IMG/VR virus record: IMGVR_UViG_3300031784_000023 | Coordinates: 7,254-71,253 of that record | Length of the DNA: 64,000 nucleotides | From: a virus | Reading direction: 5' to 3' (one strand) | Shown: in pieces, positions 3,848-61,508 of the stretch | Position numbering within the stretch: position 1 is the stretch's first letter | Layout of the letters: each line of letters begins with the position of its first letter | Program-made: the position numbers and the translations under genes | Notes under the pieces: generated by a model | Seen by the model: the letters and a program-made list of their open reading frames with translations, nothing else | What the model was told of the DNA's origin: nothing | Databases searched by the model: none

Positions 3848-4243
3848 TTAGGCCGCTTCGTTTTCCTCGTGTGGCGGCAATAGCGGCACGGAACACAATT
3901 CTTCGTAGTGCTTAGCCGAGTCAGACTCGTTGTGATCCCGATTAACCCACTCTAAAATCTTTAATTCACGGTCATGCCTCCAAAATAACTGTGTCCTATA
4001 CCACTCACACCATTCAATATTAGACTTTTTCAAGTTACAGCAACCGCATGACGGTATAAGATTTGCCCTAGTCGTTGTTCCTCCTCTCGATTTAGGTACA
4101 ACGTGATCCAGTGTTTGGGGGTCCTTTCGCCCGCAATATGCACACTCGTGTTTCCACGCGGCGAAGATGTCTTTTCTGAATCTCTTACGTGCTGTAGATC
4201 TTGTTAAGCACTGTAGCTCAAAAAGCAAATCATATTCCGTCAC
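3848..4243 (-). CDS. HNH endonuclease
   Basis: CAYCG...TLDHVVPKSRGG...NLIPSCGCCNLKK. Confidence 0.9.
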   Translation of the reverse strand: MTEYDLLFELQCLTRSTARKRFRKDIFAAWKHECAYCGRKDPQTLDHVVPKSRGGTTTRANLIPSCGCCNLKKSNIEWCEWYRTQLFWRHDRELKILEWVNRDHNESDSAKHYEELCSVPLLPPHEENEAA

Positions 4244-4312
4244 ACTGCAGGTGCGGACTAGCTACATTCTAAAGAATTAACACACAACCTGTGTTAACCG
4301 ATGCTAAAAAAC

Positions 4313-4825
4313 TCAGCTAACTAAGGGAATCGGGGGCTGAATCTCAATTTCAAGCTCAGACGTACTGATAGCGCGGCCGACGCGGACCGACGCACCGTAC
4401 TGATTCAGGCCCGAAGCACTGATGATGCCAGAACCAGTCGAATATGGCGTGATCTGTCCCTTGTACTTGGAAAGGAAGTAATCGGTGCCAGGTACCAGTT
4501 GCGTGCCGCCGGTGATGTTGGCGCCGGTAACGACCACGACGCCATCCAGATTGACTTCGACCTGCGAACCCGCCGTGACGGTCTGAGCTGCTGCACCGAT
4601 GGGGTAGTAGAACGCAGTCGCCACGCCGCTCAGCGCGGTAGCTTTGACCGCCAGGCTATTACCGCTGGTGTAGACGATGTCGCCTTGGGTCAGGTTCTCG
4701 CCCGCGAATAGGACGTAAGGCGACGTGTAACTCGAAGTCGTGCCGCCGCCGTTGACAAGCCAGACCTGGCTACCGTTTGAGGTGTAGCTGGTGTAACTGC
4801 GGTTGAAAATATTACGGGAAGTCAT
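4313..4825 (-). CDS. Putative virion structural protein
   Basis: G/S/T-rich beta protein, similar in style to 6305-6781; lies in tail-gene context. Confidence 0.6.
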   Translation of the reverse strand: MTSRNIFNRSYTSYTSNGSQVWLVNGGGTTSSYTSPYVLFAGENLTQGDIVYTSGNSLAVKATALSGVATAFYYPIGAAAQTVTAGSQVEVNLDGVVVVTGANITGGTQLVPGTDYFLSKYKGQITPYSTGSGIISASGLNQYGASVRVGRAISTSELEIEIQPPIPLVS

Positions 4826-4854
4826 ATTAAGTAACCTGCTTATACGTTATTTTA

Positions 4855-5535
4855 TCAAACCCAGGTATTTAAATCAGTCCGTTTCCAAGTATTTGTGGCT
4901 GTACAAACGTAGAGATAATTAGTATCCCAAGCAATCTGTCCTGCTGTTCCAGATGCCGAGGCAGATGCCGGAGTTTTAGACATCTCAATCTGAAAATTAT
5001 CATCTTCTACACGAACATATTCGTTAGTAACCGCAAGTTTACCTATTCCACTGACTGCAATACCGACAAAATACTGTCCAGACCCGTAAACACCGCCTGT
5101 GCCTACTCGAATACCTGGTGTTGATACAGTGCCGCCACTAGCGACAATAGCCCCTGTCATAGAGCCGCCGGATTTAGGCAGCGCATTTGTTCCTACGACT
5201 AAAGCAGCATTGCCAGAAGCTAATGCCGTCGAACTAACACCTAACGCAGCATTACCGCTAGATAACGCAATTAACGCTAGAGAAATTCCTGCATTACCAG
5301 AAGCTGCAGCACGACCGTCAATACCCAGTTTACTATCCGCAGAGAAATAAAGACCGCTAGGATTAGAAATTAAAGAAACGTCTAGCCTGGGATTACTACC
5401 AAAAAAACCCCCTCCGATCAAGCCACTACCAGCAATAATTTGCTGACTTTGGTATAAAGCGCCGTCTACATTATCACCTACAGGCAACTCGGATTGAACA
5501 CCGCTAACTAAAACGATCGGCCGACGAGTAGCCAT
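4855..5535 (-). CDS. Putative tail fibre protein
   Basis: Repeated [AS]SGNA motifs; C-terminal GQIAWDTNYLYVCTATNTWKR fibre-tip motif. Confidence 0.65.
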   Translation of the reverse strand: MATRRPIVLVSGVQSELPVGDNVDGALYQSQQIIAGSGLIGGGFFGSNPRLDVSLISNPSGLYFSADSKLGIDGRAAASGNAGISLALIALSSGNAALGVSSTALASGNAALVVGTNALPKSGGSMTGAIVASGGTVSTPGIRVGTGGVYGSGQYFVGIAVSGIGKLAVTNEYVRVEDDNFQIEMSKTPASASASGTAGQIAWDTNYLYVCTATNTWKRTDLNTWV

Positions 5536-5603
5536 TTGCGACCTAATTACCTAGTGTAATTCTAACAAACAAATCTTAGTCTCCCACGCGGGCAGCTGTC
5601 GAC

Positions 5604-5825
5604 TTACAAAAACAGACCGTACCAAAGCGCCAAACAAACAGCACCAAGTACAGTAGCTACAAAATCCATAAATTCAGGTGTTCCCCGCCCTGATAGATCC
5701 CAAAACTCTTTAGACGCCGCAACTAAGACAACAACCAAAAAAGCAATAGGATGCCCTAGCGGATAAAACATAGCGAAAACGCTAAGTCCTACCGCAAAAT
5801 GGTAAACTTTGTCTTTAGCAATCAC
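5604..5825 (-). CDS. Small membrane protein
   Basis: DKVYHF...KEFWD...DFVAT pattern with hydrophobic helices. Confidence 0.6.
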   Translation of the reverse strand: MIAKDKVYHFAVGLSVFAMFYPLGHPIAFLVVVLVAASKEFWDLSGRGTPEFMDFVATVLGAVCLALWYGLFL

Positions 5826-6301
5826 GCGGGTGTATCGCCGTACCGAATAATCGTATAGCGAGTTGATGCTGCTGTGTTTGAGAAAGTCTGAAGAACGCCG
5901 CTGTTATTGGCAAAAGTGCCGCTGTAGGTGCACAAAATACCACTTGTATAAAGAACAGCGTACTCTGTAATGACAGTGGTAGAGCCGTTCTGTACTAAAT
6001 GAACCTCACTGGTTTGAATCTCGCGTCCACGCTTGGCTTTGATGTGGTACCGAGCGGAATCAAGAAGACCGCTGGCAAAAACATCAAGCGTCGTCCCTGC
6101 CGTTGTCGTTGTCGTGACGGGAGTTAGACGATTTGTTTGAAAGTAAGGATAACCCGCGTAACGAGCATCCAAACCACTGACTGTAACTAGCTTGTTTTTA
6201 TCCGAATCTGCCGCTTCGTAGCGATCAACGACAGGCAGCTGGATGTAACCGCTGGGAGAAGGACCAATGTCCGAAAAAGCCGAAATTTTACGGTTGGTCA
6301 C
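5822..6301 (-). CDS. Putative tail-associated protein
   Basis: C-terminal domain resembles the triplicated domain of 6930-8579. Confidence 0.6.
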   Translation of the reverse strand: MTNRKISAFSDIGPSPSGYIQLPVVDRYEAADSDKNKLVTVSGLDARYAGYPYFQTNRLTPVTTTTTAGTTLDVFASGLLDSARYHIKAKRGREIQTSEVHLVQNGSTTVITEYAVLYTSGILCTYSGTFANNSGVLQTFSNTAASTRYTIIRYGDTPA

Positions 6302-6304
6302 AAC

Positions 6305-6781
6305 TTAAGCGTCTTCTAAAAGTATTTTAGAGCCGTCTTCGGCTACTAAGTATTCTATCAGAGGTGATTGATCTTCCGTAAGTAAAGCTGTATTTGTGCT
6401 GCTCGTTAAAATACCGTCCTCAATCTCAATTTTGATCGTTCCGGCACCTAAAGCATCGCCAACTTGAGTAACAAAAAAAGGATCAAAAAACTCTATATAA
6501 CCAGACGCAACATTATTAAAATCAGTCGTAAGGATACCTGACCCGTGAATCGATAAATATGCTGGTTTGCCCAGAGTCAGGCCCGCCGTACTAACAGCGG
6601 CGTAATCCGTCAAAACAATTCGAACACGCGACCCAGCTTCAGTCACGCCGTCCGAAATGCCGACCACGCGGGACCGATCGGCCGAAAAAGGATCAGCAGG
6701 AATAGCGTAGCCGCTGCTGTTAATTGCAACAGCTACGCCATTACCGATGTATTCGCCAGCAGTAACAACACTAAAAGCCAT
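6305..6781 (-). CDS. Putative virion structural protein
   Basis: ORF track; LLTED/LVAEDGSKILLE tail motif. Confidence 0.6.
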   Translation of the reverse strand: MAFSVVTAGEYIGNGVAVAINSSGYAIPADPFSADRSRVVGISDGVTEAGSRVRIVLTDYAAVSTAGLTLGKPAYLSIHGSGILTTDFNNVASGYIEFFDPFFVTQVGDALGAGTIKIEIEDGILTSSTNTALLTEDQSPLIEYLVAEDGSKILLEDA

Positions 6782-6929
6782 ACTGCAACAAGAGAACTAA
6801 CTTAATTCTAACCTTTTCCCTGTCCGCGACTTTTTTTGCGGCCATGAGAGGGCTTGCTATGCAGCCCGTCTCCCTGTCGGGTTTTTTTGGGCTTCGACTC
6901 GATGAGTTGGGTGTTCTTAGGCTTGGCCA

Positions 6930-8579
6930 TTAGGGTGTGACGCGAACGGGACGGAACACGGTAGAGGCAGCGGTGTTGCTGTAGCCAACGATCTCGACGA
7001 AATCGCCGACGACAAAACCGCTGAACGCTGCCAGGATACCCGAACTGAACACAACCGAGTGTTGCGACAGATACGCGTCAGACGGTGTGTGCACAACAGT
7101 GAGATCAGAGCTCTGGACTTCGCCGCCACGGTTGACATTAACCGTAATGGTCTTGGTACCAGATGCCTGGACCGGGTAGCGGTCGATCAGCGTGCCGATA
7201 GTCGACGCGGTCGTGACCGGCAGACCCTGAGTATTGCCCCAAATAACTGGCCTATAAGTCGTATAAGCAGTAGAGGTTGGATAAGCAACAATTTGAACGT
7301 TACCGCCAGAAACCTGACCGCTAAATGTCGCAAGCGCCCCACTCGAATAGACAACCGAGTGCTCTGAACTAAAGCCGCTGACCGCTGTGTGGACAACGGT
7401 AACATCGGAGTTCTGGACATCGCCGCCACGCGCAACGTTAACGGAGTAAGTCTTAGTGCCCGAGAAGCTAACCGGGTAAGAATCGAGGACCTTACCGGTA
7501 AATGCTGTCGAATAAGACGAACTTACAGTAGTGCCGTTCCAAACAATCGGCCTGAATACCGTGCGGTCGATCGAATTGCTATATCCGACCAGCTCAACAA
7601 AGCCATCGACAAGCTGGCCGCTGAACGCAGCCAGAATGCCGCTGCTAAAGACGACAGAATGCTGCGAAACGTACGCATCACTCGCGTCATAAATAAGGGT
7701 GATGTCGGAATTTTGTATCTCGTTGCCCCGCTGAACGGCAATCGAATAGGTTTTGGGGCCGACATAAGACGTCAAATAGCTGTCCAAGACGACCAAATCG
7801 GTCGTGCGGGTCGTTTTGGTCGGAGTCGGGGGGTCAAGCAGCGAAGTCCAGTTGCTGCCGTCCCAAATCTTGATGACGCTAGTGGTCTGGTCGTACCAAA
7901 CCTCGCCCTCAACCACAGCAGTCGGGGGTGTTTCGCGGTACGCAACGCTCCGACGGGCATCAGGCTCGTACCATCCGCTCGAAACAGCGTCATAAATAAG
8001 GAGATTGCCCAGATCTCGGTTGAACCAAAGCAGTCCGTCCCGAGGCGGAGCGTTATTACCGACGCCAGACGGCGGTGTTTCGGACGTGTACGCGAGGGCT
8101 TCGGCGTTCAGCTGATACCAGCCGGGATTCGACGCGCCGGAGACATAAACAAACGTCCGACCTTCGTTCTCATCAAACCAAATAGTGCCCGCATATGCGC
8201 CCGAAGGAGCTACACCACTAACGATCGCTCCAGGAATACGCTGAGCGTCAGCGTTAATGGTCGTATATGTACCGCTCGGTGCGAAATAAATGCCGGATCC
8301 AGGGGCAAGTCCGGACGCACCAACGCCTCCGCCGCCGCCTTGAATACCGCTAATTGTCGCATTTAAATCTTCTAAGGCTCGGACAATGCCGTTCCAAGAT
8401 GCCTCGTAACCGTAAGGACACCGTGTGTAAGAAGTAGTGCCCACGCCGCTTACAGTTGCTAAAAGTTCTTCGAGGACTTCGACCGCACCTTGGAACCCTT
8501 CCTCATGTAATGCCCTCGGAAAGGCTCCGTGTACGGGACAAGATGGGCTGTTTACTTCGTCGGGCATTAGATACAACAA
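6930..8579 (-). CDS. Tail fibre protein with three tandem ~95-aa C-terminal repeats
   Basis: Repeats of LDSY...KTY...RG.E.Q.SD...SQHSVVFSSG.LA.FSG...FRP; GxxWFD fibre motifs. Confidence 0.75.
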   Translation of the reverse strand: MLYLMPDEVNSPSCPVHGAFPRALHEEGFQGAVEVLEELLATVSGVGTTSYTRCPYGYEASWNGIVRALEDLNATISGIQGGGGGVGASGLAPGSGIYFAPSGTYTTINADAQRIPGAIVSGVAPSGAYAGTIWFDENEGRTFVYVSGASNPGWYQLNAEALAYTSETPPSGVGNNAPPRDGLLWFNRDLGNLLIYDAVSSGWYEPDARRSVAYRETPPTAVVEGEVWYDQTTSVIKIWDGSNWTSLLDPPTPTKTTRTTDLVVLDSYLTSYVGPKTYSIAVQRGNEIQNSDITLIYDASDAYVSQHSVVFSSGILAAFSGQLVDGFVELVGYSNSIDRTVFRPIVWNGTTVSSSYSTAFTGKVLDSYPVSFSGTKTYSVNVARGGDVQNSDVTVVHTAVSGFSSEHSVVYSSGALATFSGQVSGGNVQIVAYPTSTAYTTYRPVIWGNTQGLPVTTASTIGTLIDRYPVQASGTKTITVNVNRGGEVQSSDLTVVHTPSDAYLSQHSVVFSSGILAAFSGFVVGDFVEIVGYSNTAASTVFRPVRVTP

Positions 8580-26707: not shown

Positions 26708-27661
26708 TCAGGCTTGATCCAAGAACAACAGCTTGGCTCGCAGAGACTCAGGAGACATGTTGTTCAGGTAACGCCAAGCTTGATCAGGAGCTTGGTTCAT
26801 AACCTGGCCAAACTGTTCCCACTGCGCGTTGGGGTCTTGAGTACGCTGACCGCCGGTAGCAGCGGCAGGCACAGCAGGCACCTGATCGTAGTTGGGTGTA
26901 TAGGACTGCTGTTGGAGAGCAGTGCGAGCGTTATCGGCAGCGATCTGTTCGTCAGTGCGAAGATCGGTGGGATACACCTCGGTGAAGAACCGGTTGGTGT
27001 AGTCAGCCAGATGATCAGGATCAGTCAGAATCTGCTCCATAGCCATGCCACGGGTGGCGATTTGCTCCAGAGTCTGATGCTGTTGAATCAGCGCATCCTC
27101 CAGGGTGGTGGAGTACTGATTCAAGATCGCAGGCGCTTCGAGGCCGAAGTGATTAACTACGGCGGCGCTTGCTTGGCTTAACTGCGGCTCCTGCGCCGTA
27201 GAAGTCGGCGAGGAAATTGGGGTCGTATAGACGCTGTTGGATAAGGTCGGCTGAACCGTAGGGGGTTGGTAAGCCCAGGGCTGTTGGGCCTGTAAAGCCA
27301 GATTGCTCTGTTGAATATCCGGCGCCGCTACCTGGGGCTGCGCTAACGATGCTGTCTGGCTGAGGGACGGGGAGAGCCGGGAAACGATCCGGTCCAGGCT
27401 GCCCAGCGCTGCCTCCCATGGGTTGCTCGGGGAGGAGGCTGACGGAAACTGGCTGGACTGGCTGTTGATAGAAGGGACCGTAGCCAGTTGTGCCGGCGAC
27501 GGCGCTTGGGCTGTAGTTGCCGAAGCTACCGCCGGGGTAGGGGTTTGCGCCACCCACTGAGGGTAGACGGTTGAGCCCATATCCGGGGAGAAGGCCGCCT
27601 GGGGCGCCGCTACTGCCGGGGAGACCGGGCTCGGGGTCGAAGCTGGGATCGCTTGGCTCAT
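26708..27661 (-). CDS. Putative capsid scaffolding protein
   Basis: Between portal and MCP; disordered N-half, helical C-half. Confidence 0.6.
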   Translation of the reverse strand: MSQAIPASTPSPVSPAVAAPQAAFSPDMGSTVYPQWVAQTPTPAVASATTAQAPSPAQLATVPSINSQSSQFPSASSPSNPWEAALGSLDRIVSRLSPSLSQTASLAQPQVAAPDIQQSNLALQAQQPWAYQPPTVQPTLSNSVYTTPISSPTSTAQEPQLSQASAAVVNHFGLEAPAILNQYSTTLEDALIQQHQTLEQIATRGMAMEQILTDPDHLADYTNRFFTEVYPTDLRTDEQIAADNARTALQQQSYTPNYDQVPAVPAAATGGQRTQDPNAQWEQFGQVMNQAPDQAWRYLNNMSPESLRAKLLFLDQA

Positions 27662-29393
27662 AGCTGCCCGAGTAAGTTAGTTCTTGCGCGAGGTGATCGA
27701 ATGTGCGGTAGAGGAGAGGCGTTATATTTAACCTCGGATCTGCCGCTAAGGGCTGGGTCGGCGCAAGAGGGTGCGGCGACTGCATCAGCTGATTTAATGT
27801 TAGCAGGAAATTTTGTAGTGCGGCTTGCGTTTGTTGAATCATTCTGAAGGGGAAACCCTTCAACATTTCCGCTCGTTCTAAATCACTTTTATCCGGGAAC
27901 AAGTAACGCAGCGCTTCCACGCTGTCAACACCTAGCTCCTGAAGATTTCGAACAACGATCGATTTCTGGTTGATGTCGTAAGCGGTGTCTTCATAAACAT
28001 CGCCTTGGAATCGATACGTTACTTCTCTATCTCCGTCTGGCGGAAGACCAAAAACTCCACCAGGTACTTTGTTTTCAGAGAGGGCCGTTTGAATAGCAAG
28101 ATCTACATCCTGCTCGTACTTAGCCAGCTTCTTTTGATAACGTTCCGCTGCTTCCGGAGTTTCTTCTTTTGGCTCCTTGGGAGGAGTCAAACCCATGACA
28201 GAAATAAAACTCTCGCGGAAAACCTGCTCCTGGTGGTAAACAATCATTTCCAGCAGTCGGCAGAAGCCGTAGCTCAAAAAACTCTTATTTTTACGAAGAG
28301 CAGTCGCTTGAGCACGACCCATAAGGCCCTTAATTTCCGTCGCAGTGGCACCGGCGCTAATCGATATTTCGTCAACGCCGCCGAGTGCGGTTCGAATTTC
28401 TTCTCGTAGTAACAACGCATATCGATTCATGTCCCCGTTTACGGGGTCAGGAGTCATGTAACCAACCCGATCCGACGGCTCTACGTTGGCAATAATTCGA
28501 GGAACTCGAAGACCCCCGATACCAGACTGCGATCCGAACGGATCTGAGACCCTCGTGGAAGGAGAATCTAAACCGCCAAATCCGCTTTGACTGCTGATCG
28601 TCGGACGGAAGTTACGATCGGTATCACTCGCCTCCACCAGATCACTACGCGGACGCGAACTGATCAGAGTCGGATTACCAAAGAACTCAATGTTCTTGGC
28701 GATATTCTGCATCATTTGATCATGCAGAACGATCTGCTGCATGAACGGCTCGAATTCACCTTCGCCTTCGGTACCGCTGGCGTTCGGCTTGTTTAAAACC
28801 TCCACGGCGGGGATAAACCCCAGCGTATTTGGCCGACTATTGCGCGGAGTAATGACAGAGCCTGGCTCTAAGTCAAAACTCAGCTCCGTGTCGGCTTCGT
28901 ACTCTGTGATCGTCTCGGCCGTAATTGAGATACGGACGTACCTCTTGTTCTGCCCGTAAGTATTTGAAGGCAGTCCTAAATTGCCGTTTTTAACTTTGTA
29001 CGAATAAAGGATTACGACTTCTTCAATCTCTCCGTTTAGATCGTGGTAAACCCGATACTGGTTTTTGTTAAAAAAGTAAATTTGGTACTTCAGCTTGGGA
29101 TCGGGCCTGAAATAGAAAAGACCCGAACCGTCAATCAAAAAATTCCGAACGATAGCCGGGAAACGGATATCAAGTTTATTAAGTTTTATCAGATCATCTA
29201 GAAACTTACTACGAGCTTTATACGTATCTTGTTCACAGTAAAAAAACAGACCCTTCTTGATCATAAGAAGGGTCATCTGCTGCACATGACTCAGTACCAC
29301 CATCGTGGCGGACTGCTTTGAGCGGTCCTGAGTCCGAGCTGCCTCCAGAATCTCACTGAATCGTCCCCGGACGCTTAAAAGATCTGCAGGCAT
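27153..29393 (-). CDS. Portal protein (probable)
   Basis: 746 aa, located between terminase and capsid; IPAVEVLN...GEGEF...SAGATATEI portal-like layout. Confidence 0.7.
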   Translation of the reverse strand: MPADLLSVRGRFSEILEAARTQDRSKQSATMVVLSHVQQMTLLMIKKGLFFYCEQDTYKARSKFLDDLIKLNKLDIRFPAIVRNFLIDGSGLFYFRPDPKLKYQIYFFNKNQYRVYHDLNGEIEEVVILYSYKVKNGNLGLPSNTYGQNKRYVRISITAETITEYEADTELSFDLEPGSVITPRNSRPNTLGFIPAVEVLNKPNASGTEGEGEFEPFMQQIVLHDQMMQNIAKNIEFFGNPTLISSRPRSDLVEASDTDRNFRPTISSQSGFGGLDSPSTRVSDPFGSQSGIGGLRVPRIIANVEPSDRVGYMTPDPVNGDMNRYALLLREEIRTALGGVDEISISAGATATEIKGLMGRAQATALRKNKSFLSYGFCRLLEMIVYHQEQVFRESFISVMGLTPPKEPKEETPEAAERYQKKLAKYEQDVDLAIQTALSENKVPGGVFGLPPDGDREVTYRFQGDVYEDTAYDINQKSIVVRNLQELGVDSVEALRYLFPDKSDLERAEMLKGFPFRMIQQTQAALQNFLLTLNQLMQSPHPLAPTQPLAADPRLNITPLLYRTFDHLAQELTYSGSYEPSDPSFDPEPGLPGSSGAPGGLLPGYGLNRLPSVGGANPYPGGSFGNYSPSAVAGTTGYGPFYQQPVQPVSVSLLPEQPMGGSAGQPGPDRFPALPVPQPDSIVSAAPGSGAGYSTEQSGFTGPTALGLPTPYGSADLIQQRLYDPNFLADFYGAGAAVKPSKRRRS

Positions 29394-46225: not shown

Positions 46226-46307
46226 TACCCAGGACGAGACTCGAACTCGTACAGCATAACGCCTCAGCATTTTAAGTGCTGTGTGTCTACCATTCCACCA
46301 CCTGGGC
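46226..46307 (-). tRNA. trnL: tRNA-Leu(UAA), intron-less
   Basis: GCCCAGG/CCTGGGT acceptor stem, GGTGGAATGGTAGACAC D arm, CAGCA-CTTAAAA-TGCTG anticodon arm, long variable arm, GTTCGAGTC. Confidence 0.95.
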
Positions 46308-55314: not shown

Positions 55315-58290
55315 CTACCGCCCACGTAACAACTCAGATAGACCAAACTCAAGTTTGCCTGGATTCCAACGCTGGCCAGCCAACTCCAATCGCCGCTGCA
55401 ACTCAGAACGATTTTGCTGACGTTGCTGTTCGGTTCGTTGTGCCTGAGTCAAAGGACGAACTTGCGCAGTTAACGGCTGTGGACCTGTACGAGCAGGACT
55501 GGCCACGCCGGTTCGAGGCGCAGTACCAAGAGCCTGACGCAACTTAGGTACAATGCCTTCTCCAGTTTCCTGGCGCACCACTTCGTTCAGTGCCCTGGCC
55601 CCCGCAGTGCCGACCATACCTGCTCCCACGCCGGGAGCTAATACCGGTACAGCGGCCAGAGCAGCAGAATATGCAGCCGCCTGCGGCAAACTCTGCACAA
55701 ACTCCGTGCCCATTTGCTGAGCCATAGGTCCGAGCCCTTCGCGATATCCAGTTTGAATTGCCTCAGGGCTAGGAATCAAATCAGCGGCGCCAGGTAGTAA
55801 CGCCGCAGGTGTACGACGAAGTGCCCGTACGTACTCGCCGACCCCCTGCGCTGCCGCAGTAGCCGGATCCATCGAGTAATACGATTTAGCGGTCAGCGGT
55901 TCCCGCGACTGAATAACTTCAGCACGAAGAGGACGAGGATCACCTTCACGAGGATTGATAATCGCCACGCCGCCTGTAAGTGAGGGAGCCGGGCGCTCAG
56001 CCTGAAGAGGAACAATATTCCCTTCGCTGTTCATGTACAACAACTGCCGCTTCTGATCTGTCAGCGGTCCAAATCCAACAGAACGGTAAGCAGCGGCGCG
56101 ACGGTTCGGTTGCCGTCCGACAAATTCTTCCTCCCTACGCAGAATAGAACTTTCCGCAGCAGATTTACCTTGACTTTCACGTAGACGTGCAAGGTCAGTG
56201 GTTTCGATGGGGGAGTTTTCTAGCAGCATCCCAGGACGTAAGTTACGGAGTACGTTCTCCGAAATGAACCTGTTCATCTGCTCAAATACAGGAGCAGGTA
56301 TCTCCTTAGCACTATAATCAAAATCTTCAGTAGGAGTCTGTGTTTCAAAAGAAACACCAGACATCCCAGTTACAGGATTATCTTGTAAAAACTTGAGTAC
56401 GTTTTTAGAAATTTCACCACTGCCCGCTAAATCCGTACCGCCCATACGGAAACGAACAGGGGCAGCCGATGTGTGCATACGAATACCATATTCACCTGAC
56501 GGATCTAAACGAGCCTCGCCCGTAGCTGGATCGTACGAAAATCTAGCTTCAGAAGGAACTTTTTCAAGATTTGGATTCCGTAAAGCGAGAGGACCCGCCG
56601 TGGGTGACATACTTGATGTCGTAGGAGTGTTGACTAAATTTTCGAACTCATTCGCACGTTGACGGATAAGAGACATGGCGTCTTGCAATTCTTGTCCCTT
56701 CGCGTAACCGCCGCCACCTACAACAGGCATACGGCGAGAAACGGCAGGAGAAGAACCGGCTTCCAGTTCCTTGCCATAGCCCATCAGGATCAATTTATCA
56801 ATAGCTTCTTTTTGTTTAGCTGTATCACCGCTGGTGTAATCGAGCTCAATCTGAGATAAATAGGAAGGCTGCACAGCCAATTCCTTCATTGCACGGTTAT
56901 AAATATTTGAACGCGCTTCCGGCTTGGAAATTTCCTGCTCTAAATCGAGATAAGGCGCCAGTTTATCGATATCCCGTTCTACAGTAGGTTTCGGGTTGGC
57001 AATGAAACTCTGCATATAAGGACCAACCTCAGGGTATTTCTCAATAAATTTATTCAGCTGTGCTGCTTGTTCTTTGACAGCTTCCTGTCGTCCTGCTTCT
57101 CTGATGTCAAATAGTTGATTTTCTAGACCGGGGATAGCAGGCTGGGCAAACTCCTCCATAGGCCGAGCCGGAATAAGAGGATCCAGACCCGCGACAGACA
57201 TATCTAAAGTTCTCAGTGTACTGGATAAGTCAAGCCCACGCGGGTCCGCTGCGCTCAAATCTTGTTGAAGCTCATACAGTGAGTTTCGACGAGGGTCTAC
57301 CGCTAGCCTGTCGGCTCCCCTCAAGATAAATTCACGCCTTGAGGGACTGACCTGATCGAGTGGAGCAATAGCGTCGGCGACTTGTGGAAGAACTACCGAA
57401 CCTTCGATAGGGAAAGTGTTGATCGGTCCACCTGCTCCTCTAGTTTGTCTGAGCTGTCGTAACGCTTCTACTTGCTCATTGAGCTCCTGCATAGTGCGAG
57501 GAGGAGTATTTCTGATGCTTTCATACGATTCCTGGATGCGGGGGTCCACCACGCGGAGCGGTAGCCCAGGCTGAATAGTGTTGCTATTAATTCGATTAGC
57601 TAAGGGATCACGAGTGACTGCATCACTGTCCGCGTAAGCTAAAAGCGTATTACGCGCCCCTAATCCCGACTCAATAGGATAAATAATTTCATCTGCCTGT
57701 TCTAGAATATCAGCGACATTTTCTAAATTTCCAGAATAATCTACATCAAACCTATTTGTATACGGCTGCAGAAGATCATTTAGCGCTGTTCCCGCTTCCT
57801 CGCTGTAGTTAGCGTCGGATAAAAACCTTGATTCGCCCGCATAACGAAGGGTTTCACGTTGAGCGGGAGTTAGCGTCCCTGCATTTACCGCGTTTAAATA
57901 AGCATCACGCGCTGCTTCGATAGTATTGCCCGGCAGCAGACTTGTTATGTCGTTGTTTTGTTCAACGAATTGTCTGACTTTAGGATTCTCCGCCGCCATC
58001 CTGTACGCATTAAGCGTCTCATTGTCGGGATCTATATCAAAACCTTGAAACGGTAGGTAGTTAGGGAAATCTTCAACGGAAGCCATTTGCCCGGCTTCGT
58101 CTACATCCACATCGGGATATATCTGAGAAAGGGCTTCGTCCAGTTCTCCCTCAGTGAGAGCAGACTCAAATAACATATCCCGGAGAGCATTCCGGTTAAC
58201 GCGATAGTTCCGGCCTAGTTTCTCCGCCGCTTCTGGAAGACGATCAATAAGAGTACGATCCGGAAGTCGCTCAAAACCTGAAGAACTCAC
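55315..58290 (-). CDS. Large hypothetical protein (991 aa), possible internal virion protein
   Basis: Long ORF with no recognised catalytic motif. Confidence 0.7.
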   Translation of the reverse strand: MSSSGFERLPDRTLIDRLPEAAEKLGRNYRVNRNALRDMLFESALTEGELDEALSQIYPDVDVDEAGQMASVEDFPNYLPFQGFDIDPDNETLNAYRMAAENPKVRQFVEQNNDITSLLPGNTIEAARDAYLNAVNAGTLTPAQRETLRYAGESRFLSDANYSEEAGTALNDLLQPYTNRFDVDYSGNLENVADILEQADEIIYPIESGLGARNTLLAYADSDAVTRDPLANRINSNTIQPGLPLRVVDPRIQESYESIRNTPPRTMQELNEQVEALRQLRQTRGAGGPINTFPIEGSVVLPQVADAIAPLDQVSPSRREFILRGADRLAVDPRRNSLYELQQDLSAADPRGLDLSSTLRTLDMSVAGLDPLIPARPMEEFAQPAIPGLENQLFDIREAGRQEAVKEQAAQLNKFIEKYPEVGPYMQSFIANPKPTVERDIDKLAPYLDLEQEISKPEARSNIYNRAMKELAVQPSYLSQIELDYTSGDTAKQKEAIDKLILMGYGKELEAGSSPAVSRRMPVVGGGGYAKGQELQDAMSLIRQRANEFENLVNTPTTSSMSPTAGPLALRNPNLEKVPSEARFSYDPATGEARLDPSGEYGIRMHTSAAPVRFRMGGTDLAGSGEISKNVLKFLQDNPVTGMSGVSFETQTPTEDFDYSAKEIPAPVFEQMNRFISENVLRNLRPGMLLENSPIETTDLARLRESQGKSAAESSILRREEEFVGRQPNRRAAAYRSVGFGPLTDQKRQLLYMNSEGNIVPLQAERPAPSLTGGVAIINPREGDPRPLRAEVIQSREPLTAKSYYSMDPATAAAQGVGEYVRALRRTPAALLPGAADLIPSPEAIQTGYREGLGPMAQQMGTEFVQSLPQAAAYSAALAAVPVLAPGVGAGMVGTAGARALNEVVRQETGEGIVPKLRQALGTAPRTGVASPARTGPQPLTAQVRPLTQAQRTEQQRQQNRSELQRRLELAGQRWNPGKLEFGLSELLRGR

Positions 58291-58396
58291 GACACCCGAA
58301 GCGATCCTTTCTATCCATCATACCAAAATACTTAAATGCAGCAGGGTTCCGTGCCGGGTGCCGTGCTACCATAGCACTGCATCACATCAAAAGCAC

Positions 58397-58741
58397 ATGG
58401 CCAACGCAATGCTCTGCATCGAAATCTATCAGTTTAACGGAACTTGGTGCTTTACAGATCTAAAACGCGAATTAGTACACGAACCTTTTGTTCTAGGTAT
58501 TCCTGAAATCATAAACACTGTTCTGGAAAACAACTCTTTGTACGAAGACGGCAAAAATTACAGAGTCTTATTCGCGGAACAGGAATTCCCTGAGGTCCAC
58601 GGGGTGCTAAATCAAGTTCGCGAAGAGTTCAATGGCGCTTGGTACGAGTGGAACGGGGAAGAGGGGTGGCTGTGCCCCGCTACATTGGCATTTTTCGATT
58701 ATTTTCCCGCTCAAATTTATTTTCGTTTTGAAAAACTGTAG
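58397..58741 (+). CDS. Hypothetical protein
   Basis: WCFTD..REL..EPFV.G...EGWLCPA...FF. Confidence 0.7.
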   Translation: MANAMLCIEIYQFNGTWCFTDLKRELVHEPFVLGIPEIINTVLENNSLYEDGKNYRVLFAEQEFPEVHGVLNQVREEFNGAWYEWNGEEGWLCPATLAFFDYFPAQIYFRFEKL

Positions 58742-58787
58742 TTAACCTGCCCGTCTTAACATACATAAGTACTCTGACCTCCCCTTC

Positions 58788-58979
58788 GTGGCACGGGAGT
58801 GGAATACCCCTACACGCGAGCCGTGGAACGGGGTCATTAAGACAGCACTAGACGCTGTTGACCAGCACAACGCATTTTATTTCCGCTCAAACGACCATAA
58901 ACACCTAATAGCAGCCGAATTGCTACGAAGTTACGTAAAATTCCTCAAAGATTTTCTTATAGAAGCCGAAAAAGTTTGA
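58788..58979 (+). CDS. Hypothetical protein
   Basis: REWNTPTREPWN. Confidence 0.6.
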   Translation: MAREWNTPTREPWNGVIKTALDAVDQHNAFYFRSNDHKHLIAAELLRSYVKFLKDFLIEAEKV

Positions 58980-58983
58980 CCTG

Positions 58984-59011
58984 TCGCCCCACGCGGGCGA
59001 TTTTTTTTTTT
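58984..59011 (+). terminator. Rho-independent terminator
   Basis: TCGCCC-CACGC-GGGCGA followed by T11. Confidence 0.85.
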
Positions 59012-59392
59012 GTCGGGGGCCTGCCTGTATGCTGATACTAAAACTTTTACCCCCTGTTTTCCAGCAAGATTTACAAAGGGTTCTCGCCGGGGGCGACGTC
59101 AAACGCACACAATTAAAAAAAAGGGGCACATTGCGTACAGACGCGCGGGTGCGGGGGAGCTGAGTTTGTATAACGAATCAAATAGCAATCGCTATGTATT
59201 ACAAACTCCTACTCTTGTTCTATTCTTTTCACTGAGCGGGGGAGGGTACCCCCTTTAACTAAAGACAATTCAGATCGTGAAGCCGCTTGACTAAAGGGCA
59301 GACGTGGTGCTAGCGCGTGCGCCCGCGCGCTTTCCTTTAGCTAGCTAGCTGACTGTGCTTTGTGTGCTTTTGCTGACCGCTCGCTTAGGGGG

Positions 59393-59422
59393 TTGACGGG
59401 ATGCGCTGATGGGGGTTACCTT
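59393..59422 (+). promoter_or_regulatory. Putative sigma-70 early promoter
   Basis: TTGACG-18 nt-TACCTT upstream of the structured region and early genes. Confidence 0.5.
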
Positions 59423-59462
59423 TGGGTCACTGGAGGAACGGGGCGCGAGCCACGCCGCCAGG

Positions 59463-59480
59463 GCACCTGGACAACCGAAT
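59463..59480 (+). promoter_or_regulatory. boxA-like element 1
   Basis: GCACCTGGACAACCGAAT preceded by GGC-GCGA-GCC hairpin. Confidence 0.55.
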
Positions 59481-59616
59481 CAACTCTCGCGACGGCCGAA
59501 CTGGCCCCGCGCGTCTGCCGCTGATGGTAGGGAGTACTTCCCCGAAGTGTAGGCAAGGGCAGGCATGGTGTGCCGGAACGAGTGCGGCGAGAGTTGTAGT
59601 AGGTAACTAGGTGAAA

Positions 59617-59634
59617 GAACCTTGACAATCGAAT
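59617..59634 (+). promoter_or_regulatory. boxA-like element 2
   Basis: GAACCTTGACAATCGAAT preceded by TGCGGC-GAGA-GTTGTA hairpin. Confidence 0.65.
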
Positions 59635-60267
59635 AGTAAAGGCTGAATAGGCGTAGTAGGTAAAAGCCGAGAGCGGATCAATGCGTGCGGGATTGGCGGA
59701 AGAGAGCCAGCGCACCGCTCTGTTGACAAACTACAGGCATGTTGTCTGTGGGCACACTGAACCGGCCAGCCATTGTCAGACTGTAACTTGTCAGCTGGCA
59801 CCTTTAACTAGGTGACTGGTTGGCATAAAGAACTGATCAGTAGAGTCGTTCTCTACATTTAGCGACGCAACGGTATTCGTCACCGTGGCTAGTGCTAGTT
59901 ACAGAGTTCAGTTTGTCTGCCTGCAGGCTTTGTCCAGAGTAACTGTCCTTAGTGCAGGTACTCTGGACACAGTTGCGAGCGAACCTCACCCGGTCGTTGT
60001 CCGGCGATGGCGGTTCAATCCGTGCAAAGTGTAGATAAACTGTGCTCTGTAACTAACACAATGCGTTTATTTTAGTTTGGGGCAACAGTTCCTAACTGTA
60101 TTAGGGCGGAGCCTGTTAACTACTAGCTTTGTCCAGGTTAAGTATTAAGTTTGATCCGATAGGATCATTCTTGATCACAGACTAGATTCTCTCCCCCAGC
60201 CACGCGGTTAGGTGAGGGATTCTTCCCTCTTTGTTGTTAGCTGCCAGCCATGTAGCTGGTGAATGTT

Positions 60268-60585
60268 ATGGACATCAAGACCAACAATCAGCCTCGTCAA
60301 CCTATGTCAGGGCTGACCCTTTCTTTGTTTGTCGGTGACAAGCAAGCTGCCAAGATTCGCAAGCAGTTTGATTACCTAACTGACACTGAGTTCGAGGATG
60401 AATCATTCATTATGTACAAAGGTTATGTGTACGCAATGTCTGACTTCATGCGTATTGAACAGGATTCCACTGGTGATCTTGCACAGTCTGGCTGGCACGG
60501 TTACAGCTCAGACTCATTCTTTAGCGGCGTGTTAATCAAACTGTGTGATGACGGCGATGTCATCCTTGGTCGCTACTGTTCCTGA
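60268..60585 (+). CDS. Early hypothetical protein
   Basis: WHGYSSDSFFSGVLIK. Confidence 0.7.
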   Translation: MDIKTNNQPRQPMSGLTLSLFVGDKQAAKIRKQFDYLTDTEFEDESFIMYKGYVYAMSDFMRIEQDSTGDLAQSGWHGYSSDSFFSGVLIKLCDDGDVILGRYCS

Positions 60586-60616
60586 GTTCTCTAACTAACC
60601 TAATTACATTCAGATC

Positions 60617-60871: not shown

Positions 60872-61074
60872 ACACTTTTACTCTCCCAACTGGCCGTCAA
60901 GTTGAGAAGAACGCCACGCACTGTGTGGCTGTTAAGACTCGCGGCCGCTGGAATCACCAGTGGTTCAAGTCTGACCGTGGCGCACAGAATGAGATCAAAC
61001 GTCTGCGCAGTTACAGTGCAGACACTGTTGCGTACTACGACATTCAAGAGTTCAAGCTTATCCGTCCCGACTGA
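60868..61074 (+). CDS. Early hypothetical protein
   Basis: GGAGGA RBS, GTGA-coupled. Confidence 0.65.
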   Translation: MNTFTLPTGRQVEKNATHCVAVKTRGRWNHQWFKSDRGAQNEIKRLRSYSADTVAYYDIQEFKLIRPD

Positions 61075-61175
61075 TTCTCTCCTGTAGCTATCCCCGGACT
61101 GCACAACAGTTCGGGTTAGTTACATGAGGGGTTCTCCCTCATTGTGTTAGCACTCACCTCTTCGTGAGGATTGTT

Positions 61176-61508
61176 ATGACTTTAACTCGCAACACCGAGA
61201 TCATTGCACCACGCGCTGTTGAGTACTTGTCAGGCGAGGAGTCTGGCTTGTTTACCTACGAAGACTTGCAGGATATTGCACTGCGTGGTTGCGCAAGGAT
61301 GGCACCAAACAAGCTCGCGTATTATCACGATACGTGGGACTTCTTCATTGAGTTTGAGGATGAAGTAGAAGACTTCTTCTACGATAAGTACGGCGACACT
61401 TGGCTAGATAAGTTCTCCAACAACAGCACAAGTGTTCGCGGCATGGTTAATCACATGGTGTGGACCTTTGTCGACTCCATTGCTAAAGAGATCACAGGAA
61501 TCAAATGA
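61176..61508 (+). CDS. Acidic early protein
   Basis: DIALRGC...YYHDTWDFFIEFEDEVEDFF. Confidence 0.7.
   Translation: MTLTRNTEIIAPRAVEYLSGEESGLFTYEDLQDIALRGCARMAPNKLAYYHDTWDFFIEFEDEVEDFFYDKYGDTWLDKFSNNSTSVRGMVNHMVWTFVDSIAKEITGIK

What the first reader, a model, noticed from the sequence alone, without database searches (positions are those of the whole stretch)
59640..60250. Unrecognised large, densely base-paired non-coding RNA downstream of boxA
Seen: about 600 nt without a credible ORF and with near-continuous helices. These include AGAGCGG/CCGCTCT (59670/59715) enclosing GTGCG/CGCAC, CTACAGGCA/TGTCTGTGG, and GCCAGCCA/TGGTTGGC (59765/59817) closing a multi-way junction. Also GTAGAG/CTCTAC, a 23-bp interrupted helix 59896-59920/60031-60055 enclosing a perfect 11-bp stem (59931-59941/59959-59969), and TGATCC-GATA-GGATCA. 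Mismatches are mainly G.U on the + strand, which points to RNA-level selection. I cannot match it to tmRNA, RNase P, introns or riboswitches. Inference: a new large phage ncRNA, transcribed first and rRNA-style, perhaps a scaffold, decoy or antiterminator. This is the best candidate for an undescribed system in the window.
Basis: partly seen in the sequence, partly recalled or inferred. Interest (0 to 1): 0.85.

Follow-up and report, generated by a model that had tools for sequence, protein, structure and literature searches.

The report
New structured RNA in phage early leader
A likely cyanobacterial virus carries, in the long untranslated stretch ahead of its first genes, a roughly 180-base RNA fold that is conserved across dozens of related uncultured phages, matches no described RNA family and has no known function.

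Summary
Only the 3' two-thirds of 59640-60250 holds up as selected structure.

**Core element.** Window 59884-60065 (+) is a three-way junction:
- P1 is a closing helix of 22-36 bp with an invariant 11-bp segment, GUUAGUUACAG/CUGUAACUAAC.
- P2 is a hairpin.
- P3 is an irregular hairpin with invariant CAC and CGAUGGC.

**Support for the core.**
- Across 36 distinct homologs, 88% of cells pair and 40 of 57 pairs show compensatory changes. Slid controls give 13-20.
- G.U outnumbers A.C by 149 to 48, and the model scores 62-183 bits on the + strand against 15-46 on the other.
- The window's core has a folding z of -6.5, there is one copy in this genome, and no Rfam family matches.

**Flanks.** Conserved hairpins follow up to the first early gene. 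By contrast, 59640-59883 folds no better than shuffles (z -1.7), and its 59641-59764 part occurs in 1 of 35 relatives.

**Context.** The region lies in a roughly 830-nt leader, behind a conserved sigma-70-type promoter and two rRNA-type boxA sites. Metatranscriptome contigs cover it.

**Reading.** It is a new RNA motif inside a modular early leader, not one 600-nt RNA. Its function is inferred only: a processing or protein-binding domain, possibly released as a small RNA. In three relatives an HNH endonuclease gene replaces P2-P3.

The parts
59394..59433 (+). Promoter-like site: TTGACG, 18-nt spacer, TACCTT, then the conserved GGTCACTG.
   Evidence: A regex for TTGAC-N18-20-A-N3-T...TCAYYG finds it 300-700 nt upstream of the core in 28 of 33 loci with at least 560 nt of upstream sequence. 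It is also visible in the alignment. The generic promoter scan did not call it.
59463..59480 (+). boxA-like site 1 (GCACCTGGACAACCGAAT).
   Evidence: Conserved in the alignment of relatives.
59617..59634 (+). boxA-like site 2 (GAACCTTGACAATCGAAT).
   Evidence: The 12-mer GAACCTTGACAA is identical to the 16S-23S spacer of a Synechococcus locus, L125. A paper passage gives cyanobacterial boxA as GAACCTTGAAAA.
59641..59764 (+).
   Evidence: Found in 1 of 35 relatives (L017) and replaced by unrelated sequence in the others. Together with 59765-59883 it folds at z -1.74.
59765..59883 (+). Semi-conserved hairpins: CTTGTCAGCTGGCACC..TAACTAGGTGA, GTAGAG/CTCTAC and GCGACG../CGTCAC.
   Evidence: A match covering at least half the segment is present in 7 of 35 relatives for each of the two sub-segments.
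59884..60065 (+). Core three-way-junction RNA element (model R1).
   Evidence: Covariation counts are. Folding z is -6.53. There is one copy in this genome.
59888..59922 (+). P1, 5' strand, with the invariant segment (GCUAGUUACAG here, GUUAGUUACAG in most relatives).
   Evidence: Helix boundaries come from the MFE fold. P1 is 22-36 bp in 36 of 36 sequences.
59923..59976 (+). P2 hairpin (UUGUCCAGAGUAACUG..CAGGUACUCUGGACA).
   Evidence: In helix 3, 11 of 12 pairs show changes on both sides and 90.7% of cells pair.
59977..60020 (+). P3 irregular hairpin: a covarying stem, invariant CAC and CGAUGGC, and a covarying terminal stem.
   Evidence: In helix 5, 15 of 18 pairs show changes on both sides. 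The three pairs formed by CAC with G(A)UG never vary.
60028..60064 (+). P1, 3' strand, with the invariant CUGUAACUAAC.
60073..60134 (+). Two hairpins (60073-60098 and 60104-60134), rich in G.U.
   Evidence: MFE fold of the window. Relatives have hairpins at the same position but different sequence. No reliable consensus was obtained.
60136..60183 (+). Hairpin built on three conserved GATC(A) sites.
   Evidence: The GATC letters are invariant or nearly so in 35 sequences. These pairs never vary, so RNA-level and DNA-level selection cannot be told apart.
60184..60223 (+). Hairpin 'H8': GAUUCUCUCC..GAGGGAUUC.
   Evidence: The base is invariant, and three upper pairs show 14-17 of 35 sequences changed on both sides. 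A second copy lies at 61073-61134.
60214..60238 (+). Alternative terminator-like hairpin GAGGGAUUCUUCCCUC followed by UUUGUUGUU. It shares GAGGGA with H8.
   Evidence: Called by the terminator scan. In some relatives the U-tract is missing (L006, L029, L010).
60259..60585 (+). First early gene (108 aa, no Pfam family).

Best explanation
**What it is (well supported).** Window 59884-60065 on the + strand is a previously undescribed, 165-185-nt three-way-junction RNA domain.
- It sits inside the roughly 830-nt untranslated leader of the phage's early operon.
- That leader is probably transcribed by host RNA polymerase from a conserved sigma-70-type promoter near 59394-59433.
- It follows two rRNA-type boxA sites.
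- A chain of conserved hairpins follows the domain and ends at the first early gene.

**How it works (inferred).** The domain acts at the RNA level within the early transcript.
- P1, the 22-36 bp closing helix with its invariant 11-bp segment, serves as a double-strand-specific processing or recognition stalk. The models are the processing stalks that flank rRNAs and the RNase III sites of the T7 early operon.
- The P2-P3 cap, with its invariant CAC/CGAUGGC bulged stem, is a binding platform for an unidentified protein.
- Processing would separate the boxA-bearing 5' part from the early mRNAs. It could also release the cap as a small RNA.

For: **Shown**
1. *Conserved fold.* All 21 first homologs fold alone into the same architecture.
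   - On 36 distinct sequences, 88.0% of cells pair. Controls with the 3' partner slid by 1-3 columns give 27-38%.
   - 40 of 57 pairs change on both sides, against 13-20 in the slid controls.
   - The covariation score is 0.383, against at most 0.108. None of 500 shuffles reaches the observed values.
   - The independent MAFFT alignment gives 86.4% paired and 28 of 57 pairs.
2. *Strand.*
   - G.U 149 against A.C 48; on the minus strand the counts reverse to 43 and 98.
   - The MFE is lower on the + strand in 29 of 36 sequences.
   - The model scores 62-183 bits on the + strand and 15-46 bits on the other strand of the same places.
3. *Non-coding.* No frame is open through the core in any of the 36 sequences. 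Lengths run from 165 to 185 nt and are not multiples of three apart.
4. *Copy number and position.* One copy in this genome. In all 28 loci that were found through the 108-aa early protein and that hold the core, it lies upstream of the early gene on the same strand.
5. *Promoter.* The promoter-like site is conserved in 28 of 33 loci.
6. *boxA.* The 12-mer is identical to a Synechococcus 16S-23S spacer, about 200 nt upstream of the 23S rRNA.
7. *RNA libraries.* Contigs of 4 of 4 laid runs cover the core and leader. None covers the adjacent minus-strand late gene at 57500-58786.
8. *P1 length.* At least 22 bp in 36 of 36 sequences.

**Inferred.** Cleavage in P1, a protein partner, and release of a small RNA.
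Against: - There is no end-mapping, so no processing site has been seen.
- RNA-library contigs bridge both P1 strands: 59798-59969, 59805-59984 and 59943-60111. Unprocessed molecules, or contaminating DNA, therefore exist.
- Contig depth over the core is no higher than over neighbouring parts, which does not suggest an accumulating small RNA.
- An invariant 11-bp helix is unusual for a purely structural RNase III site. It fits a sequence-specific reader or a DNA-level signal just as well.
- In three distinct relatives (L003, L013, L025) P2-P3 is replaced by an antisense HNH endonuclease gene between intact P1 arms. The cap may therefore be dispensable.
- The RNA runs were chosen by words from this same stretch, so their cover of it is partly by selection.
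Confidence: 0.45

Rival explanations
1. A stand-alone, trans-acting phage small RNA. The core, or the whole leader up to the terminator-like hairpin at 60214-60238, is made in bulk at the start of infection. It acts as a decoy, sponge or scaffold for a host or phage protein. The boxA sites and the P1 stalk serve to produce it in the way an rRNA is produced.
For: - Strong selection on the fold and on unpaired letters (CAC, CGAUGGC).
- rRNA-type boxA about 270 nt upstream of a long closing helix, as in the host spacer ahead of 23S.
- A terminator-like hairpin lies before the first gene.
- In two of four RNA runs (X17, X18), contigs cover the leader but not the first gene.
Against: - Those two runs carry an L002-type variant whose first gene differs, which explains the missing gene cover.
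- Depth over the core is not raised.
- The U-tract of the terminator-like hairpin is missing in several relatives.
- No partner has been identified.
- P2-P3 is replaceable by an HNH gene.
Confidence: 0.25
2. A cis-acting processive antitermination RNA of the HK022 put or Bacillus EAR kind. The folded core binds the transcribing RNA polymerase. It lets the polymerase read through the terminator-like hairpins that precede early genes (60214-60238 and 61126-61150).
For: - It lies between the promoter and the terminator-like hairpins.
- Those hairpins recur before two early genes.
- boxA sites in the same leader point to antitermination control.
Against: - boxA with host Nus factors could do this alone.
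- Several relatives keep the hairpin but lack a U-tract.
- The core is far larger than put RNA as I recall it.
- Relatives with the HNH replacement keep the downstream hairpins.
Confidence: 0.12
3. A DNA-level element. The invariant inverted 11-mers, the GATC triplet and other invariant words are protein-binding or recombination-junction sequences. They could belong to an origin, to operators, or to module boundaries used for mosaic exchange. The hairpins would be a by-product or form in single-stranded DNA.
For: - The 11-mer never covaries and recurs. A third exact CTGTAACTAAC lies just after the first gene in many relatives, and a one-mismatch copy lies at window 60589.
- Modules are swapped exactly at conserved words.
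- The GATC sites are invariant.
- The minus strand also folds better than shuffles.
Against: - Compensatory changes occur in 40 of 57 pairs.
- The G.U over A.C asymmetry is strand-specific.
- Model scores are strand-specific.
- RNA-library contigs cover the region.
- A DNA role for the invariant words could coexist with the RNA fold.
Confidence: 0.1
4. A miniature inverted-repeat mobile element, or chance palindromes with no function.
For: Terminal inverted repeats of 11 bp or more flank a short non-coding insert.
Against: - One copy in this genome.
- A fixed syntenic position and deep divergence with preserved pairing.
- No match in 185,579 prokaryote genomes to the arm-plus-CGATGGC pattern.
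Confidence: 0.03

Closest known systems
RNase III processing sites of the phage T7 early operon (recalled from textbook knowledge, not fetched)
   Same: Structured RNA elements lie in the leader and between genes of an early operon. Host polymerase transcribes that operon from promoters upstream of a long non-coding stretch. Helices are long enough for a double-strand RNase.
   Different: T7 sites are single irregular hairpins. Here the element is a three-way junction with invariant helix and bulge letters. No cleavage has been shown, and there is no sequence or Rfam relation.
rRNA operon spacer: boxB-boxA antitermination signals followed by the long processing stalk that encloses an rRNA
   Same: The boxA 12-mer is identical to a Synechococcus 16S-23S spacer. 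boxA lies about 200-270 nt upstream of a long closing helix in both.
   Different: The stalk encloses about 105 nt, not an rRNA. Similarity to host spacers stops after 19-22 nt. The invariant P1 word occurs in only 2 of the 80 fetched host loci (L113, L117), and I did not look at where in them.
Lambda nut and HK022 put early-leader RNAs (recalled)
   Same: They are cis-acting RNA signals just downstream of early promoters that modify the transcribing polymerase.
   Different: nut and put are small, with one or two hairpins. The core is 165-185 nt with a three-way junction. No antitermination test has been done.
phi29 packaging RNA (pRNA; Rfam holds a family for it, accession recalled as RF00044)
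   Same: It is a phage-encoded RNA of about 120-174 nt with a long closing helix and a three-way junction.
   Different: There is no Rfam match at E up to 10. No loop-loop covariation was seen. This phage has a conventional large terminase.
Large ornate phage-associated RNAs (ROOL, GOLLD) and HEARO
   Same: They are non-coding, strongly structured and phage-associated. An HNH gene occurs at the locus in some relatives.
   Different: There is no match to any Rfam family. The conserved unit is three to four times smaller. The HNH ORF is 121-128 aa and replaces part of the RNA instead of being served by it.

Membership tests
Any Rfam 15 family (including ROOL, GOLLD, HEARO, 6S, tmRNA, RNase P, introns, riboswitches, small ribozymes, pRNA) | A covariance-model score at or above the family's gathering threshold. 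| tested here: not met
   Across the whole window, only a tRNA at 46226-46307 reaches threshold. At E up to 10 on 58800-60400 there are three matches, all far below gathering: 27.2 against 59, 15.8 against 41, and 10.6 against 49.
RNase III-type processing stalk | A double-stranded helix of about two turns (roughly 20 bp or more; threshold recalled). | tested here: met
   P1 is 22-36 bp, median 27, in 36 of 36 sequences.
RNase III-type processing stalk | Staggered cleavage in the helix, dependent on the enzyme. | not testable with these tools
   Only contigs of RNA runs were available, and they cannot show ends. Contigs that bridge both P1 strands exist.
rRNA-type (Nus-dependent) antitermination leader | A boxA sequence matching the host consensus, downstream of a promoter. 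| tested here: met
   GAACCTTGACAA at 59617-59628 is identical to the spacer of Synechococcus locus L125. A paper passage gives boxA as GAACCTTGAAAA. The promoter-like site is conserved in 28 of 33 loci. This feature lies upstream of the finding's interval.
rRNA-type (Nus-dependent) antitermination leader | Binding of NusB/NusE and read-through of terminators. | not testable with these tools
   This needs biochemistry or reporter assays.
phi29-type pRNA | Complementary loops that covary for ring formation, and a family model match. | tested here: not met
   There is no Rfam match. The top mutual-information pairs are the nested helices, with no loop-loop pair.
Miniature inverted-repeat transposable element | Many near-identical copies per genome at unrelated sites. 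| tested here: not met
   One place in this genome. The position is syntenic in relatives, and the copies are diverged with compensatory changes.
Protein-coding small ORF | A frame kept open across homologs. | tested here: not met
   All six frames are interrupted in each of the 36 cores, and lengths vary from 165 to 185 nt.
Intrinsic terminator or attenuator (for 60184-60238) | A G+C-rich hairpin followed by a U-tract, with a competing alternative hairpin. | tested here: inconclusive
   The hairpin plus UUUGUUGUU is called in the window. The competing H8 hairpin covaries. The U-tract is absent in L006, L029 and L010.

The most novel reading that the evidence does not exclude
The phage runs a miniature imitation of an rRNA operon. 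A strong early promoter, host-identical boxA sites and a long processing stalk recruit the host's rRNA antitermination and chaperone machinery. That machinery makes, folds and excises a dedicated phage small RNA, the P2-P3 cap. Through its invariant CAC/CGAUGGC stem the RNA binds a host or phage protein in the first minutes of infection, as a decoy or scaffold.
Probability: 0.2. Interest if true: 0.8.

Novelty: new variant of a known kind. Interest (0 to 1): 0.6.

Why it matters
- Structured RNAs in phage early leaders are among the first molecules made in an infected cell. The few that are understood (nut, put, the T7 processing sites) shaped what is known about transcription control.
- This element has a covariation-supported fold, invariant unpaired letters that point to a specific partner, and a host-identical rRNA boxA upstream.
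- It is spread through a clade of uncultured freshwater and estuarine phages that share genes with Synechococcus phages.
- The element gives a concrete RNA to test for processing, polymerase modification or protein capture in cyanobacteria, where little phage early regulation has been worked out (my own assessment; none of my paper searches, turned up a study of this element or clade).
- The covariance model can be used to annotate further genomes.
- The natural HNH replacement of P2-P3 offers a ready-made comparison.

Tried and rejected
- **Known families.** Rfam at gathering and at E up to 10 gave nothing usable.
- **Cultured relatives.** blastn of 59000-60300 against GenBank phages gave no match, so no cultured relative with the element was found. 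The 108-aa protein has only distant homologs (31-41% identity) in phages of Pseudomonas, Edwardsiella, Vibrio and others.
- **Host origin.** The arm-plus-CGATGGC pattern found nothing in prokaryote genomes. Similarity of the leader to cyanobacterial rRNA spacers ends after the boxA region.
- **Pseudoknots or loop-loop contacts.** The mutual-information scan showed only nested pairs.
- **Hammerhead idea.** The idea came from the recurring YGAUGG word. There is no Rfam ribozyme match and the flanks do not fit the consensus as I recall it.
- **Small-ORF idea.** The AUG inside CGAUGGC opens frames of very different lengths in relatives (read off).
- **A discrete 3' end near 60111.** Contigs of three runs stop there with no loose end. 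The place lies inside a hairpin strand and next to a strain-variable base, and no DNA run was laid for comparison. I draw no conclusion.
- **No RNA-contig cover of 60113-60313.** This is not interpretable.
- **Structure of 60066-60145.** The alignment was too poor for a consensus structure.
- **Partner protein.** Pfam on 31 window ORFs found no RNase, RNA-binding protein or phage RNA polymerase.
- **Literature.** Five searches found nothing on this element. I saw only listings, plus one passage. Supplements are closed and were not seen.

Full report
**Setting.** The window is the last 64 kb of a 71,253-nt virus record, rated 88% complete.
- Its large terminase is nearest to that of Synechococcus phage S-EIVl, at 51% identity.
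- For a virion protein, 105 of the 135 matching records are Synechococcus phages.
- One early gene belongs to the Pfam family Kyano_Gp96.
- No phage RNA polymerase or RNase was found among 31 ORFs scanned.

The interval 58980-60258 has no ORF of 100 aa or more. It separates minus-strand structural genes from a run of small plus-strand genes.

**The observation.**
- 59640-60250 folds with z -5.19 on the plus strand and -7.22 on the minus strand, against 20 shuffles each.
- Split up, the core 59884-60065 has z -6.53, with 0 of 200 shuffles as good.
- 59640-59883 has z -1.74, with 13 of 200 as good.
- In 13 loci the 250 nt upstream of the core give z from +0.8 to -3.3. The 190 nt downstream give -1.7 to -5.1.

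**Homologs.** GenBank phages gave no nucleotide match. Searches with neighbouring proteins and with a DNA pattern brought in related loci from IMG/VR and metagenomes. The same pattern found nothing in 185,579 prokaryote genomes.

Alignment shows a mosaic leader. Some blocks are shared by nearly all relatives, while others are swapped.

**The core.** Each of 21 distinct homologs of 59884-60065 folds on its own into the same shape.
- P1 is a long closing helix.
- P2 is a hairpin.
- P3 is an irregular hairpin in which invariant CAC and CGAUGGC flank a variable terminal stem.

*On a MAFFT alignment* (A2) with a majority structure of 57 pairs:

| Measure | Observed | Slid controls |
|---|---|---|
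| Cells paired | 86.4% | 28-38% |
| Pairs changed on both sides | 28 | 9-17 |
| Covariation score | 0.326 | 0.056-0.104 |

No shuffle of 500 reaches these values.

*Model matches.* A covariance model (R1) found further cores that were not in its training alignment. Examples are L018-L022, L030, L032, L005, L016 and L057-L075. They score 62-183 bits, while the opposite strand of the same places scores 15-46 bits.

*On the 36 distinct cores aligned to the model.* This alignment leans towards the model.

| Measure | Observed | Slid controls |
|---|---|---|
| Cells paired | 88.0% | 27-38% |
| Pairs changed on both sides | 40 of 57 | 13-20 |
| Covariation score | 0.383 | at most 0.108 |

Mutual information ranks the same nested pairs highest and shows no pseudoknot.

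*Strand and coding*.
- G.U outnumbers A.C by 149 to 48 on the plus strand. A structure derived from the minus strand shows the reverse, 43 to 98.
- No reading frame stays open through the core.
- Lengths are 165-185 nt.

*Other counts.* This genome has one copy. P1 has 22-36 bp in all 36 sequences. Its segment GUUAGUUACAG/CUGUAACUAAC hardly ever varies.

**Downstream of the core.** Hairpins follow in a fixed order up to the start codon.
- Two G.U-rich hairpins (60073-60134).
- A hairpin built on three invariant GATC sites (60136-60183). Its pairs never vary, so RNA and DNA selection cannot be separated there.
- Hairpin H8 (60184-60223), with an invariant base and three covarying upper pairs.
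- An alternative terminator-like hairpin (60214-60238) that reuses GAGGGA.
- A conserved hairpin across the start codon.

The H8-to-start cassette recurs at 61073-61176 before another early gene.

**Upstream of the core.**
- A sigma-70-type site (TTGAC, a spacer of 17-18 nt in the sequences read off the alignment, a -10 with A at position 2 and T at position 6, then GGTCACTG) is conserved in 28 of 33 loci. The generic scan did not call it.
- Two boxA-like sites follow. The second, GAACCTTGACAA, is identical to the 16S-23S spacer of a Synechococcus locus. There it lies between the spacer tRNAs and the 23S rRNA.
- A paper passage gives cyanobacterial boxA as GAACCTTGAAAA (10.1101/2021.01.08.426015, passage only).
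- The boxA-plus-next-word pattern is not exclusive to cyanobacteria. By my reading, 42 of the 80 listed titles are cyanobacteria.
- Similarity to host spacers ends after 19-22 nt.

**Expression.**
- Of the 24 runs listed, six rows on record as RNA hold 0.14-0.32 of the sampled words.
- Four of them were laid, as contigs only. In all four, pieces lie on the leader and core.
- Pieces also lie on early genes in X15, X16 and X18. X17 has leader pieces only.
- None lies on the late gene at 57500-58786.
- Loose ends match the L002-type variant module, so swapped modules appear in these libraries too.
- Contigs cannot show strand, ends or level, and the runs were picked with words of this stretch. 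This is a weak hint of transcription and not proof.

**An unexpected variant.** In L003 (the same record as L041), L013 and L025, the P1 arms are intact. P2-P3 is replaced by an antisense 121-128-aa ORF. The L003 copy matches Pfam HNH at 29 bits against a cut-off of 21.4. The model finds no core in these loci.

**Reading.** The finding is real as a new structured RNA motif, but it is smaller and more modular than proposed.
- *Best supported:* a cis-encoded domain of the early leader.
- *Inference only:* that P1 is a processing or recognition stalk, that P2-P3 is a protein platform, and that a small RNA is released.
- *Rivals:* a trans-acting RNA, a polymerase-modifying RNA, and DNA-level roles for the invariant words.

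**Literature.** I found no paper on this element (searches; listings only).

Noticed in passing
L003:5367-5732 (-); also L013 and L025, upstream of the 108-aa gene: An antisense HNH endonuclease ORF (121-128 aa) sits between intact P1 arms in place of P2-P3. It looks like a homing-endonuclease allele of the RNA locus.
   Followed up: partly
window 60184-60258 and 61073-61176: A repeated cassette precedes at least two early genes. Its order is GAUUCUCUCC, a variable hairpin, GAGGG(A/G)UUC, CCCUC, a U-rich run, a hairpin, then the start codon. The H8 and terminator-like pairings exclude each other. L013 also carries it twice.
   Followed up: partly
window 59604-59614 and 59805-59815: The exact 11-mer TAACTAGGTGA occurs twice. 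It holds TAA, TAG and TGA in the three different frames, and also an AGGUGA Shine-Dalgarno-like word.
   Followed up: no
window 60589-60599; many loci just after the first early gene: A third copy of the P1 3' word CTGTAACTAAC lies directly after the stop codon of the first gene (CTCTAACTAAC in the window). Close variants recur in other early intergenic spots (61115, 62815).
   Followed up: partly
window 59020-59345: Further conserved blocks lie upstream. They include a TATGCT/TATAAT-like -10 near 59037, an invariant A8 run with flanks (59113-59135), and a second TTGAC site at 59286. They may be tandem early promoters.
   Followed up: no
window 58983-59011: A strong intrinsic-terminator-like hairpin with a T run follows the 63-aa ORF. 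One RNA-library contig (X17) ends at 59008.
   Followed up: no
L006, L007, L010 at the position of window 59180-59340: These relatives carry a long alternating purine-pyrimidine (GCGTGT)n-like tract in place of the window's sequence.
   Followed up: no
L003:4990-5180: An extra module of about 190 nt is enclosed by an 18-nt inverted repeat (GTTGTTGTAGTTGTTGTC..). It is inserted in the leader of this relative only.
   Followed up: no
L104 (a Microcoleus record), 3972-7441: The boxA-type word lies just upstream of an array of about 20 tRNA genes. In this cyanobacterium boxA therefore also precedes a long tRNA operon.
   Followed up: no
window 59001-60000: GC skew is +0.11 here and near zero or negative in most of the rest of the window (a few 1-kb bins, such as 27001-28000 at +0.17, are also positive). 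This fits a G- and U-rich structured plus-strand transcript.
   Followed up: no
window 59519-59530, 60005-60012; variant modules of L003, L004 and L008: The word YGAUGG(Y) recurs beside hairpins in three different leader modules.
   Followed up: no
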